Part shown: positions 2,867 to 28,574 of the stretch, in pieces
Layout of the letters: the number at the start of each line of letters is the position of its first letter
Numbering within the stretch: position 1 is the stretch's first letter
DNA from: Carcharhinus amblyrhynchos
Taxonomy: Eukaryota
NCBI GenBank assembly: GCA_965287045.1
Contig: OZ336877.1
Span: 79,856,001-79,920,000 of the forward strand
Length of the DNA: 64,000 nt
Direction of reading: 5' to 3'
Program-made: the position numbers and the translations under genes
The notes under the pieces: model-generated
The model's input: the letters and a program-made list of their open reading frames with translations, nothing else
Databases searched by the model: none
Told to the model about the DNA's origin: nothing

Positions 2867-3291
2867 AAAGACAGATTTGCAGTGCAGTGACAGAGCAAAA
2901 AAATATTGTTTCACCTGGATCCAGAATCCAGGATCAATGTCCAATAAGGTATTCCTTCATAGAGTTTGACAGACTTAATATCTATGCTCTATAATTCACT
3001 TTTCCAGTGGAATTGACTTCAGACCATGAGATGGGCACACAGAGATGAGTCAAATTTGTAGGCTAGGATACAGAAATTCCAGCTGAAGCTGGGACTAGGG
3101 TTCAATTTGGGTAGAGACACTTTTCTGTGAGGTTGCTTGTAACATGGTAAACAACGGATGGAGTTTGCTGTATAGCAAAGCAATATAACTGATTCCACCA
3201 GGTAGAGGTTCATGTCACAACTCTCTCCTTTCTGCATTGCCATTGACAAGAGATGTGTATCCCTTGTCTTAGTCCCAAAGTTGGTTATATA

Positions 3292-4752
3292 TAGAACAGG
3301 GAACATAGAACATTACAGCGCAGTACAGGCCCTTCGGCCCTCAATGTTGTGCCAACACATGAAACCAATCTAAAGCTTTTGGGACTAAGACAAGGGATAC
3401 ACATCTCTACCTACATTATTCCAATATCATCCATATGTTTATCCAATGACCATTTAATTGCCCTTAATGTTGGTGAATCCACTACTGTTGCAGGCAGGGC
3501 ATTCCATGCTCTTACTCTCTGAGTAAAGAACCTACCTCTGACATCTGACCTATATCAATCACCCCTCAATTTAAAACTATGTCCCCTGGTGCTAGCCTTC
3601 TCCATCCGAGGGAAAAGGTTCACACTGTCCACCCTATCTAATCTTCTGATCATCTTATATACCTCTATTAAGTCACCTCTTAACCTTCTTCTCTCTAACA
3701 AAAACAGCCTCAAGTCCCTCAGCCTTTCCGCATAAGACCTTCTCACCATACCAGGCAACATCCTGGTAGATCTGCTCTTCACTGTTTCCAATGCCTCCAC
3801 ATCCTTCCTATAAAGCGGTGACCAGAACTGTACGCAATACTCCCAAGTGCGGCCGCACCAGAGTTTTGTACAGCTGCAACATGGCTTCTAAAGTCAATCC
3901 CTCTACCAATAAAAGCTAACACACCATACGCTTTCTTAACAACCCTACCAACCTGTTTGCCAACTTTCAGGGATCTATGCACATGGACACTGAGATCTCT
4001 CTGCTCATCCGCACTACTGAGTAACTTACCATTGGCCCAGCATTCTGTATTCCTGTTACTCCTTTCAAAGTGATTCGCTTTACACTTTTCCACATTAAAC
4101 TCCATTTGCCACCTCTCAGCCTAGCTTTGCAGCTTATCTAAGTCCCTCTGTAACTGCAACATCATTCCACACTGTCCACAACTCCACCGACTCTAGTGTC
4201 ATCCACAAATTTACTAACCCATCTTTCTACACCCTCAATTAGGTCATTTATAAAAATGTCAAACAGCAGTGGCCTCAAAACAGATCCTTGCAGTACACCA
4301 CTAATAACTGAACTTCAGGATGAACATTTCCCATCAATCACTATCCTGTCTTCTTGCAACTAGCCAATTTCTGATCCAAACCGCTAAATCACCCTCAATC
4401 CCATGCCTCCATATCCTCTGCAATAGCTTACCATGGGGACCTTATCAAACACTTTACTGAAATTCATGTACACCACATCAACTGCTGTACTCTCATCCAC
4501 CTCTTTGGTTACCTTCTCAAAGAACTCAATAAAGTTTGTGAGACACAACCTACCCTTCACAAACCTGTGTTGACTATCCCTAATCAAATTATTCCTTTCT
4601 AGATGATTATAATCCTATCTCTCATAATTCTTTCCAAAACTTTGCCCACAACAGAAGTAAGGCTCATTGGTCTATAATTACCAGTGTTGTCTCTACTCCC
4701 CTTCTTGAACAAGGGGACAACATTTGCTATCCTCCAGTCTTCTGGCACAATC
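3292..4752 (-). mobile_element. CR1-clade LINE (HER1-like), 5'-truncated, decayed ORF2
   Basis: Minus-strand ORFs give CR1 ORF2 motifs: VPEDWRIANVVPLFKKGSRDNTGNYRPMSLTSVVGKVLERI; SQHRFVKGRLCLTNFIEFFEKVT..VDVVYMNFSKVFDKVP; MEFNVEKCK; LERRRLRGDLIEVYKMI. (AGAACAT)n tail at the left end. Confidence 0.95.
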
Positions 4753-12725: not shown

Positions 12726-13104
12726 TTTAAATATGTTTCAAGATCTGATTTGCTTCATTCACTGCCACTAAGCATTTTTGTAACAGCTTCAATTTATTTT
12801 CAATCTGATTCTCACTTTACTTTCATTTTCCATATATATATATTCTTTTTCCATTGAAGTAAGTCACTTATTGCACTTTTGTCCTCACGTGAAGCCCTTT
12901 GAATTTCTCTATATTGAACTTGAACTGTTATCATTGCCCAGTTCACAGGTAGACTCAAATTATTTTGCAGTTTATCTGGTTCAGCTTGGCAGCCTACTTT
13001 AGGGTTTATATTTGAAAATTTAGCCACTGTGTTTATGACTCCAAACTCCAGATCATTTATCCGCTAAAAACATGGGAGGTCCCAAAACAGGCCCCATGAC
13101 ATTC

Positions 13105-13570
13105 CATTGATCTTCGGGTCAGCGTTCTTCGAGGCGGCCTTCGCGGCACAATACAGAATCGCCAAGCAGAAACTGATAGCCAAGCTCCGCACACGAAGAC
13201 AGCCTCAACCGGGATCTTGGGTTCATGTCACACTATCTGTCACCCCCACTACTTGCCTGAGCTTGCAAAATCTCACTAACTGTCCTGGCTGGAGACAATA
13301 CACATCTCTTTAACTTGTGCTTAACCCTCTCTCCATTCATCTGTCTGTACCTTTAAGACTTGATTACCTGTAAAGATTCGTTTTCCAACCATTATCTTGT
13401 AAATTGAGTTTGTGTCTATATAAGCCCTGTTTGTGAACACAACTCTTCACTTGCCTGAAGAACGAGTGATACTCCGAAAGCTTGTGTTACCAAGTAAACC
13501 TGTTGGACCTTAACCTGGTGTTGTGAGACTTCTTACTGTGCTTACCCCTGTCCAAGGCCAGCATCCATTG
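13105..13570 (+). mobile_element. Penelope-like element 3' end (GIY-YIG C-terminus, pLTR and tail)
   Basis: Frameshifted DLRVSVL.GGL...RIAKQKLIAKLRT..SLNRDLGFMSHY; hammerhead-like core CTGAAGA (13455-13461)...GAAA (13476-13479); tail CTTACTGTGCTTACCCCTGTCCAA. Confidence 0.85.
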
Positions 13571-13624
13571 GTGACATTCTTGAGGAAGACAACCTTTTGC
13601 CGCCAACCTCTGGGTCCTATTTGC

Positions 13625-18277: not shown

Positions 18278-18467
18278 TGATGTGGAGATGCTGGCGTTGA
18301 ACTGGGGTAAACACAGTAAGAAGTCTCACAACACCAGGTTAAAGTTCCAACAGGTTTATTTGGTAGCAAAGGCTTATCTGACGAAGGAGCAGCGCTCCAA
18401 AAGCTAGTGACTTTTTCTACCAAATAAACCTGTTGGACTTTAACCTGGTGTTGTGAGACGTCTTACG
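18278..18467. mobile_element. PLE-derived fold-back mini-element with hammerhead core and 14-bp TSD
   Basis: Inverted arms 18316-18370 / 18413-18466; CTGACGA-A-GGAGCagcGCTCC-AAAA core; TSD ATATAGAATAAAAA at 18264-18277 and 18468-18481. Confidence 0.85.
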
Positions 18468-25140: not shown

Positions 25141-25535
25141 TGTTGACCTGCACTCGCTTGCATTCCACCAATGCACTGTTTTAAAATTTGCCACTTCTTA
25201 AGGAACATAACAAATAGGACCAAGAGTGCACATACTGGCCACAAGCCTGTTCTGCAATTCGAAGATCATGGCTGACCTTAGCTTTCTTAACCTATTCTCA
25301 TGTCCCTTGATTCCCTTTGGAGTTCAGAAATCTATTTATCTCATTCTTGAAAATACTCAACAAAAGTGCTCTGGGATAGAGAATTATAATGATCAACAAA
25401 CCTCAGAATGAAGATGTTCCTCCTCATCTCAGTCCTAAATAGCTGGCCACTTATCCTGAGACTACAACCCCTGGTTCTAGGTCCTCCAGTTTAGGGAAAT
25501 AGTCTCTCAGCATTTATCCTGTCAAGCCCTCTTAA

Positions 25536-26704
25536 CAATGTAACATCTCAAAGTTTGCAGATGACACCAAGTTGGGTAGGAGGTTGAACTGTGATGAGGA
25601 TGCAGAAGTCCTTCAGAATGATCTGGACAGTTTGGATGAGTGGGCAAATCATTGGCAGATGTAGTATAATTTGGATAAATGTGAGATTATTCACTTTGGA
25701 AGCAAAAACAAGAAGGCAGATTACTACCTAAATGGCTGTAAATTGGGAGAGGGGAGTGTCCAGCGGGACCTGAGACCTGAGTGTCCTTGTACACCAGTCA
25801 CTGAAGGTAAGCATACAGATTCAGCAGGCAGTAAAGAAGGCAAATGGCATGTTGGTCTTCATTGCGAGAGGTTTCAAGTACAGGAACAGGGATGTATTGT
25901 TGCAACTATACAGGATGTGGAGTGCCGGCATTGGACTGGGGTAGGCACAGTAAATAGTCTCACAATGCCAAGTTAAAGTCCAACAGGTGTATTTGGTAGC
26001 AAAAGCTTTCAGAGCATTGCCCCTTCATCAGGTGAGTGAGCTTACTTGATGAAGAGGCAACACTTCGAAAGCTGGTGCTACCAAATAAACCTGTTGGACT
26101 TTAACCTGGTGTTGTGAGACTACTTACTGCAACTATACAGAGCCTTGGTGAGACCAAATCCAGAGTATTGTGTGCAGTTTTGGTCTCTTTTCTGAGGAAG
26201 GATGTTCTTGCTCTCGAGGGAGTGCAGCGAAGGTTTACCAGGCTGATTCCAGGGATGGCAGGACTGATGTATGAGGAGAGATTGACTAAATTAGGATTGC
26301 TTTCGCTGGAGTTCAGACAAATGACAGGGGGATCTCATCGAAACTTATAAAATTCTAACAGGTCTAGACAGGATAGATGCAGGAAGGATGTTCCCGATTG
26401 TGGGGCAGTTCAAAACCAGGGGTCGCGATCTGACGATTCAGGGTAGATAATTTGGGATGAAACAAGGAGGCATTTCTTCACCTAAAGAGCGCTGAACTTG
26501 TGGAATTCTATCATAGTTGATGCCAAAACATTGAATGCATTCAAGAGTTGGCTGGATATAGCACTTGGGGCAAATGGGATCAAAGGTTATGGGAAAAAGC
26601 AGGATTAGGCAATTGAGTTAGATGATCATAATAAATGGTGGAGCGGACTTGAAGGGCCAAATGGCCTCCTCCTGCTCCTATCTTCTATGTTTCTATATTC
26701 CTAT
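25536..26704 (+). mobile_element. CR1 LINE 3' fragment with RT catalytic motif
   Basis: ISKFADDTKLG at 25545-25577; DKCEIIHFGSKN; LEGVQRRFTRLIPGM; (TTCTATG)n tail. Confidence 0.95.
25914..26127. mobile_element. PLE-derived fold-back mini-element with two divergent hammerhead cores and 13-bp TSD
   Basis: TSD TGCAACTATACAG at 25901-25913 and 26128-26140 inside CR1 ORF2; minus core CTGATGA(26031-26025)..GAAA(26010-26007); plus core TTGATGA(26046-26052)..GAAA(26067-26070). Confidence 0.9.
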
Positions 26705-28136: not shown

Positions 28137-28300
28137 CCAAAACAGAAAATGCTGGAAAATCTCAGCAGGTCTGGTAGCATCTGCAAGGAGAGAAAAGAGC
28201 TGACGTTTCGAGTCCAGACAACCCTTCGTCAAAACTGACATTTTGAGTCCAGATGACCCTTTGTCAAAGCTGATGTTTTGAATCCAGGTGACACTTTGTC
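28137..28300 (-). mobile_element. Penelope-like terminal fragment with three tandem 35-nt hammerhead units and 10-bp TSD
   Basis: Units start at 28200, 28235 and 28270; best unit on the minus strand is TTGACGA-AGGGTTGTCTGGACTC-GAAACGTC-AGCT; TSD AATTCTATCT at 28127-28136 and 28301-28310. Confidence 0.85.
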
Positions 28301-28574
28301 AATTCTATCTTCTTGCTGAAAACCAGGCAGCTAAAATGGCTGTTGCGAGTACCCATTCAGATCCTGATATCTTTCTGTGGGTTGCAATGTTATACAGTTC
28401 TTTTTACCAGGCAGAGGGATATGGATTGTAAAGTAGTCAGATCCACCTGGAAACATGCAGATTGGGATCTGATGTCCGTAGGGGCCTCAACTACAATTTT
28501 AATTGGAAACTTGTGCAGAGGAGCTGCTCTGGCTTCAGCCAAGCCAACATATTTTTTCATTCTGAGGATATTTT

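What the first reader, a model, noticed from the sequence alone, without database searches (positions are those of the whole stretch)
25901..26140. TSD-flanked ~210-bp fold-back element with back-to-back hammerhead ribozyme cores
Seen: 25914-26127 interrupts CR1 ORF2 with a perfect 13-bp TSD. It is a near-palindrome whose centre holds two divergent hammerhead-like cores about 14 nt apart: minus CTGATGA-AGGGGCaatGCTCT-GAAA (boxes intact) and plus TTGATGA-AGAGGCaacACTTC-GAAA. The left arm carries an extra ~35-bp tail; the right arm stops at CTTAC. Established: Penelope-like elements carry minimal type I hammerheads in their pLTRs and often insert with an inverted pLTR and a short 3' tail. Inference: the architecture and end points match 18278-18467, suggesting either a ribozyme-bearing hairpin non-autonomous family mobilised by the PLE seen at 13105-13570, or a highly stereotyped truncation product. 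A transcript from either strand would contain a hammerhead core and form long dsRNA.
Basis: partly seen in the sequence, partly recalled or inferred. Interest (0 to 1): 0.72.

Follow-up and report, generated by a model that had tools for sequence, protein, structure and literature searches.

The report
Hairpin stump of a Penelope retrotransposon
This short DNA hairpin is the decayed stump left by one jump of a Penelope-type retrotransposon, in a mirror-image layout already described for that class, and the places where its two halves stop hint at how these elements copy themselves.

Summary
25914-26127 has a perfect 13-bp TSD, 89-nt arms (84% complementary, 4-nt loop), a 36-nt tail on one arm, and two hammerhead cores 14 nt apart on opposite strands. 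It is the known Penelope-like (PLE) 'inverted pLTR + tail' insertion at minimal size.

A hairpin family that replicates as a unit is not supported. The neighbour at 18278-18467 has a different centre and one core. In four public runs this centre carries 0.08-0.32% of the depth of the hammerhead arm, and 0 of 15 listed bridging contigs is gap-free. Both cores are eroded (U3 and G17; a lost stem-I pair) and locked in the hairpin (about 30 kcal/mol), so cleavage is unlikely.

One lead is new here. The related copy at 13.1-13.6 kb has a TATA box 32 nt before an Inr-like site, and 3 of 4 fold-back arms end within 3 nt of that site. This fits two run-off cDNAs primed from both target nicks (inferred, untested). 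The scan reported the same pattern before in two other shark genomes. New member of a known kind; interest 0.3.

The parts
25901..25913 (.). Left target-site duplication (13 bp)
25914..25949 (-). 36-nt PLE 'tail', present on this arm only
   Evidence: 30-40 bp tail described in PMC8557442 and PMC3846280
25950..26039 (-). Tail-bearing pLTR arm; its inner end lies 2 nt upstream of the Inr register
26000..26034 (-). Minimal type I hammerhead: boxes intact, extra A before stem II, palindromic stem III, H17 = U; pair 1.1-2.1 lost, two G-U pairs in stem II
26037..26040 (.). 4-nt centre between the arms
26041..26127 (+). Inverted, tail-less pLTR arm; starts 1 nt downstream of the Inr register and ends at the tail boundary
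26043..26077 (+). Eroded minimal hammerhead (U3, G17, C-A mismatch in stem II)
   Evidence: other letters at 26046, 26055, 26056, 26065, 26074
26128..26140 (.). Right target-site duplication
25500..25900 (+). Host repeat upstream: decayed LINE reading frame (CR1-like; name recalled; extent not mapped)
   Evidence: high-copy flank and contigs that skip the insert
26141..26700 (+). Host repeat downstream (same frame resumes; extent not mapped)
18278..18467 (.). Second fold-back of the same pLTR family: same outer ends, 14-bp TSD, different centre, one core (G12 changed to A)
13110..13567 (+). Single-arm 5'-truncated PLE copy: end of a GIY-YIG-like frame, 3' UTR, hammerhead, tail; probable 6-bp duplication 13104-13109 / 13568-13573
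13417..13452 (+). TATA box (13417) and Inr-like site (A at 13449), 32 nt apart: predicted pLTR transcription start, 6 nt before the hammerhead core
   Evidence: TATA plus Inr-like TCACT also noted in Adineta pLTRs, PMC3846280

Best explanation
It is a single, old insertion made by an endonuclease-bearing Penelope-like retrotransposon: the class's 'inverted pLTR + tail' structure reduced to the last 90-125 nt on each side. SHOWN: the TSD; both arms are copies of the same pLTR end, one ending at the tail end and one at the tail boundary; both arms came from one template lineage; centres differ between copies. FROM THE LITERATURE: a PLE protein cuts and extends both target strands, starts reverse transcription at two internal RNA sites that bound the tail, and uses uncleaved RNA (PMC11167929). 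INFERRED (about 0.45 for this exact route): a staggered 11-13-nt cut gives two 3'-OH ends. One primes at the tail-end site and the other at the tail-boundary site of the 5'-most pLTR copy in the RNA. Both cDNAs run through the uncleaved hammerhead and off the RNA's 5' end at the pLTR start site, and they are joined head to head with a few nt of variation. The mirror half is therefore made at each insertion, and the hairpin is not the unit that moves. Today the cores are relics: eroded and sequestered in dsRNA.
For: PLE link: the same pLTR end at 13.4-13.57 kb follows a frame that matches public protein P0004 (tblastn E 6e-12 over 13109-13273), which has a weak GIY-YIG match (E 0.012). The hammerhead has the PLE min-HHR hallmarks of PMC4209133: an extra nucleotide after position 9, G10.1-C11.1 in 2 of 4 copies (G-U in 1, mismatch in 1), and palindromic stem III; 90.6% of cells are paired versus 31-53% with slid partners. 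Two end sites across the family: many loose ends at 26126-26128 with AT-rich letters and low agreement (488, 468 and 660 contigs in X1), and at 26129, where the consensus is the tail (1928). One template: both arms share letters that most laid depth lacks at three mirrored positions (26122/25955: other letter 89%/68% of X1 depth; 26060/26017: 65%/86%; 26056/26021: 62%/51%). Centres vary: centre depth is 0.08-0.32% of the left hammerhead arm in 4 of 4 runs; 15 of 32 listed pieces bridge the centre, 0 of 15 without gaps, net length -9 to +3; 12 of 15 listed joints lie inside the element, each in at most 4 contigs per run. Run-off: TATA at -32 from an Inr-like A at 13449 (TATAWAW in a given 7-nt interval has p about 0.003); in that register A-left ends at -2, A-right and B-right start at +1; 3 of 8 listed centres with known letters have the tail arm ending at 26037-26039 with 1-3 nt between. 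The arms run 34-37 nt past the scissile bond, so the template was uncleaved.
Against: The GIY-YIG match is below Pfam's cut-off (16.4 versus 22.6 bits) and P0004 is a chimeric gene prediction; two word-index searches found no homologue. The contig test is coarse: only 15 of 679 joints and 32 of 210,033 pieces are shown; pieces were chosen by length and so favour centres like this one; this copy's eroded right core can clip alignments and so undercounts centre depth; no listed piece spans the whole stretch. A net -5 centre recurs in 4 of 15 bridging pieces (runs X1 and X13), which could be a small subfamily. The reference had no sequence upstream of the hammerhead, so the family-wide drop-off at the Inr was not measured. 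The start site is predicted from one copy only. B's tail arm (1 of 4 arms) ends near the cleavage site, not the Inr. Covariation in four copies does not beat the shuffle control (41-68 of 500). A strict hammerhead descriptor alone gives 1 hit versus 0.37 expected.
Confidence: 0.8

Rival explanations
1. Same identity, different route: one cDNA is primed at the tail end, then folds back at its 3' end and copies itself (self-priming), and endonuclease resolution trims the second arm at the tail boundary.
For: The loop is only 4 nt with a short palindrome at the centre. Both arms share minority letters. Self-priming was proposed from palindromes at inverted junctions in PMC3846280, and EN-mediated resolution for the tail in PMC8557442.
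Against: It needs a separate reason why the second arm stops exactly at a site that PMC11167929 identifies as an RT start site. In B the inverted arm contains the whole hammerhead, which the tail-bearing arm lacks, so it cannot be a copy of that arm as it stands.
Confidence: 0.3
2. A ribozyme-bearing hairpin non-autonomous family: the whole fold-back is transcribed and retrotransposed as a unit by PLE protein.
For: The outer ends are stereotyped in both fold-backs of the window. Tens of contigs bridge a similar centre, and a net -5 centre occurs in 4 of 15 listed pieces from two runs. One joint (26039 to 26081) is listed in 4 of 4 runs.
Against: A and B have different centres. Centre depth is at most 0.32% of the hammerhead arm; 0 of 15 bridging pieces is gap-free; no listed internal joint exceeds 4 contigs per run. 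The hairpin lacks the TATA box seen in the longer copy, and its pLTR signals would be buried in dsRNA. A joint shared by four runs at 1-2 contigs each is what one inherited locus would give.
Confidence: 0.07
3. Hammerhead cleavage or stalling at the hammerhead fold, not the transcription start, sets where the arms end.
For: B's tail arm ends within about 6 nt of the predicted scissile bond. Five of 15 listed joints leave the left arm at 25999-26006 or rejoin at 26076-26081 next to that bond.
Against: Three of 4 arms in the window run 34-37 nt past the bond. HHR cleavage was not needed for PAc insertion in vitro, and no reads ended at the cut site (PMC11167929). Some of those joints may reflect a subfamily indel at the same place.
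Confidence: 0.15
4. Two unrelated insertions landed head to head, or the hairpin is a MITE or DNA-transposon derivative.
For: The family is very abundant (32,495-65,317 contigs laid per run), and the element is an inverted repeat with a TSD.
Against: One TSD frames both arms; the arms share minority letters; the layout recurs at 18.3 kb. The inverted repeat is not terminal (36-nt tail outside it), and the TSDs differ in length and sequence (13 and 14 bp).
Confidence: 0.02

Closest known systems
Inverted-pLTR + tail insertions of canonical EN+ Penelope-like elements (Arkhipova et al. 2013, PMC3846280; Craig et al. 2021, PMC8557442; passages read)
   Same: Head-to-head inverted pLTR next to a direct pLTR; a 30-40-bp tail on one end only; the inverted copy shorter by about the tail; short variable TSD (8-10 bp in Adineta); palindromic junction; TATA plus Inr-like TCACT in the pLTR.
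   Different: Here nothing lies between the two pLTR ends: no ORF, and only the last 90-125 nt of each. The arms end at the predicted start site, which the passages read do not report.
PLE minimal hammerheads, including dual motifs on opposite strands (Cervera and De la Pena 2014, PMC4209133; parts 1-2 of 4 read)
   Same: Type I min-HHR with an extra nucleotide before stem II and palindromic stem III; the paper reports dual min-HHRs about 100-700 bp apart on opposite strands in Schistosoma mansoni and ties the mostly single motifs to truncated PLEs.
   Different: The cores here are only 14 nt apart, and both are eroded.
PAc (Poseidon, Anolis carolinensis) in vitro mechanism (Frangieh et al. 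2024, PMC11167929; parts 1-2 of 4 read)
   Same: Two RT start sites bound the tail; both strands are cut and extended; the outer start is 111-118 nt from the start of stem II, versus 110 nt for the tail end here; uncleaved template.
   Different: A text search of that paper found no passage on inverted insertions or TSDs; linking its two start sites to the two arms is my inference.
Animal non-LTR retrozymes (PMC7229834, passages read; bioRxiv 10.64898/2026.07.22.740005, part 1 of 5 and passages read)
   Same: Short, non-coding, type I hammerhead, related to PLE pLTRs.
   Different: Retrozymes are head-to-tail tandem units with hammerheads in the same orientation that release circular RNAs; this element is head-to-head with one core per strand.

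Membership tests
EN+ Penelope-like element insertion | pLTR end linked to an ORF with a C-terminal GIY-YIG endonuclease | tested here: inconclusive
   The related copy at 13109-13273 matches P0004 (E 6e-12), whose GIY-YIG match is below cut-off (E 0.012); no full ORF is in reach
EN+ Penelope-like element insertion | Telomerase-like RT in the autonomous element | not testable with these tools
   No genome is held; no loci in three collections
EN+ Penelope-like element insertion | Inverted 5'-truncated pLTR adjacent to a direct pLTR | tested here: met
EN+ Penelope-like element insertion | 30-40-bp tail at one end only | tested here: met
   36 nt; two classes of ends in 4 runs
EN+ Penelope-like element insertion | Short TSD of variable length | tested here: met
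   13 bp and 14 bp
PLE minimal hammerhead | Core boxes, extra nucleotide before stem II, palindromic stem III, short stem I | tested here: met
   Layout present in 4 of 4 copies; 90.6% paired versus 31-53% slid. Each copy has lost one or more core or stem letters. Rfam has no hammerhead match
PLE minimal hammerhead | Self-cleavage as a dimer | not testable with these tools
   Predicted unlikely for this copy: fold penalty 28.6-31.4 kcal/mol; G17 cuts the rate of minimal hammerheads at least 300-fold (PMC3884650)
Non-LTR retrozyme | Head-to-tail tandem units, each with a hammerhead in the same orientation | tested here: not met
   Head-to-head, one core per strand
Non-autonomous family replicating as a unit | Shared internal junction across dispersed copies | tested here: not met
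   a small subfamily is not excluded
MITE / DNA transposon | Terminal inverted repeats and a fixed TSD length | tested here: not met
   The tail lies outside the repeat; TSDs are 13 and 14 bp

The most novel reading that the evidence does not exclude
A minority of these fold-backs form a true hairpin mobile element. One early fold-back (for example the centre 5 nt shorter than this one, seen in 4 of 15 bridging pieces from two runs) was itself transcribed and re-mobilised by PLE protein as a double-stranded RNA with a silenced hammerhead on each strand, a viroid-like layout that I found described for no animal retroelement in the papers read.
Probability: 0.07. Interest if true: 0.7.

Novelty: new member of a known kind. 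Interest (0 to 1): 0.3.

Why it matters
As an object it is ordinary. Its value is as a record of mechanism. How PLEs make their tandem and inverted structures is described as unresolved (PMC8557442). If the two arms are run-off cDNAs primed from both target nicks at the two RT start sites found in vitro, then tail, inversion and fixed short length have one explanation. The very large number of such stumps in this genome family would make that testable by counting in a single good assembly.

Tried and rejected
No whole genome is held, so a copy-by-copy census was impossible. An exact 22-nt pLTR pattern found 0 loci in viral, metagenome and prokaryote collections. Rfam: 0 matches at gathering score in the window; 9 sub-threshold matches around the element, none a hammerhead, and the best are miRNA-precursor models that score any hairpin, rejected. 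Word-index protein searches with two frames of 13098-13250 found nothing. Of 3 phmmer hits, P0003 and P0005 matched only 22 residues and were set aside. Pfam on four short window pieces gave nothing at cut-off. No RNA holder was listed among 23 runs. All runs were contigs, so expression, RNA ends and cleavage were not examined. No listed contig spans the whole stretch, so presence or absence of this insertion in relatives could not be read. The relaxed hammerhead descriptor gave 6 hits versus 3.6 in shuffles and is not evidence. Lunse et al. (PMC5785218) is not held; nothing is taken from it. Look-ups of earlier notes by sequence, place and a second word set were empty. Supplements of the cited papers were not read; they may already show PLE start-site or junction maps.

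Full report
OBSERVATION. The insert 25914-26127 is framed by a perfect 13-bp duplication found only twice in the window; 2 nt of the right copy are ambiguous with the element's own continuation. It consists of arms 25948-26036 and 26041-26129 (89 nt, 84% complementary, 4-nt loop) and a 36-nt extension on the left. Both strands fold into one long hairpin far beyond chance (z -16.0 and -20.7). Removing the insert and one TSD restores a continuous frame. Contigs of other copies of the flanking repeat skip it (3 of 15 listed joints). The names CR1 and 'cartilaginous fish' are recalled or taken from earlier scan notes; no call here confirms them.

WHAT THE ARMS ARE. Five arms of one family lie in the window: two here (A), two at 18278-18467 (B) and one at 13.4-13.57 kb (C). 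C runs upstream into a frame that matches public protein P0004 from exactly 13109 (tblastn E 6e-12). P0004 has a weak GIY-YIG match below cut-off. Four arms carry a minimal type I hammerhead layout with the hallmarks listed for PLE min-HHRs in PMC4209133. Pairing is 90.6% against 31-53% for slid partners, though four sequences cannot beat the shuffle control. An inverted truncated pLTR beside a direct pLTR, with a 30-40-bp tail on one end and a short TSD, is the described structure of EN+ PLE insertions (PMC8557442; PMC3846280). Dual min-HHRs on opposite strands were already noted (PMC4209133).

FAMILY OR PRODUCT. A and B share outer ends but not centres: B's tail arm stops before the core, so B has one core. 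No genome is held, so I laid contigs of four public runs on 25820-26220 at 80% likeness (65,317, 52,878, 61,087 and 32,495 contigs laid; X7 read to about 79%; X1 may be the window's source). Depth through the centre is 0.08-0.32% of depth on the left hammerhead arm in 4 of 4 runs. Of 32 listed pieces (of 210,033), 15 bridge the centre with 31 or more letters on each side; none is gap-free, and net length runs from -9 to +3, with -5 in 4 of 15. Of 15 listed joints (of 679), 12 lie inside the element, each in at most 4 contigs per run. Of 12 listed rows with in-between letters (of 628), 9 are internal and give 8 different centres. Limits: depth is not copy number; the lists are truncated and favour centres like this one; the eroded right core can clip alignments, so centre depth is an underestimate of unknown size. 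A dominant shared centre is not seen; a small subfamily is not excluded.

ONE TEMPLATE, OLD INSERTION. At three mirrored positions both arms carry a letter that most of the laid depth lacks (26122/25955, 26060/26017, 26056/26021), so the arms started alike. They now differ at 14 of 89 sites, 11 of them transitions, about 9% per arm. A perfect 13-bp TSD is still expected about 11% of the time at that divergence.

RIBOZYME STATUS. The plus core has U3, G17 and a mismatch closing stem II; the commonest other letters in the runs restore C3, a five-pair stem II and C or U at 17. G17 lowers minimal hammerhead rates at least 300-fold (PMC3884650, passages). The minus core keeps its boxes but has lost the pair next to the scissile bond. 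In the full transcript stem II has a pairing probability below 1e-9, and forcing the core open costs 28.6 (+) or 31.4 (-) kcal/mol; in B it costs 0.9. The cores are on opposite strands, so one RNA cannot dimerise them. Activity was not tested; it is predicted absent.

MECHANISM. PMC11167929 shows that a PLE protein cuts and extends both target strands, starts at two internal RNA sites that bound the tail, and does not need hammerhead cleavage. Here one arm ends at the tail end, 110 nt from the start of stem II (111-118 in that paper), and the other at the tail boundary. Loose ends in the runs pile up at this boundary, some going on into the tail and others into AT-rich letters with low agreement. 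C keeps the upstream pLTR and shows a TATA box 32 nt before an Inr-like A at 13449 (p about 0.003 for a TATA in a given 7-nt interval); the same Inr-like motif is noted in rotifer pLTRs. In that register A-left ends at -2, and A-right and B-right start at +1. B-left is the exception and ends near the scissile bond. Three of 8 listed centres with known letters also have the tail arm ending at 26037-26039. I infer that both 3'-OH ends of a staggered cut primed at the 5'-most pLTR copy of an uncleaved RNA, ran off its 5' end, and were joined head to head. I put the identity at 0.8, this route at about 0.45, fold-back self-priming at 0.3 and cleavage- or stall-defined ends at 0.15. B argues against plain fold-back, because its inverted arm holds sequence that its partner lacks.

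WHAT IS KNOWN. The structure is a member of a described class. It fails the retrozyme test (tandem, same-orientation hammerheads) and the MITE test. I found no paper on such stumps in sharks or on run-off at the pLTR start as their cause (searches; open-licence library only, supplements not read). Papers seen: PMC8557442, PMC3846280, PMC2377424, PMC3884650, PMC7229834 and PMC6765202 as passages; PMC11167929 and PMC4209133 as parts 1-2 of 4; the 2026 bioRxiv preprint as part 1 of 5 plus passages. Two earlier notes of this scan reached the same reading on other shark DNA. One gave me the lead to PMC3846280 and the phrase that the mirror half is built anew at each insertion. They are not independent support.

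VERDICT. A real but mostly ordinary feature: a new member of a known kind. Interest 0.3, carried by the testable start-site lead.

Noticed in passing
window 28140-28310 (-): A different hammerhead-core-like motif (relaxed descriptor hit at 28232) with about three degenerate head-to-tail copies of roughly 30 nt around the core; probably the end of another PLE-type family.
   Followed up: no
window 3249-3408: Perfect 31-bp inverted arms enclosing 98 unrelated nt; could be a small inversion or MITE-like insert.
   Followed up: no
window 26029-26037 (+): The antisense of hammerhead stem I and core reads as a textbook 5' splice donor (consensus recalled); it could promote exonisation of these stumps.
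   Followed up: no
P0004 versus window 13109-13273: A public predicted protein fuses a FAM210 domain to a PLE-like GIY-YIG piece: either exonisation or a gene-model artefact.
   Followed up: partly
window 26076-26127: This stretch draws about 10-25 times more contig depth than the hammerhead region, suggesting that several subfamilies with different hammerheads share one conserved block next to the inner RT start site.
   Followed up: partly
window 18396-18410 versus 26070-26080: B's right arm is 7 nt longer just after the cleavage site, and loose ends in the runs show the same longer form: at least two pLTR subfamilies.
   Followed up: partly
window 782-62750: At least eight copies of a SINE-like repeat family, and several LINE 3' ends.
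   Followed up: no
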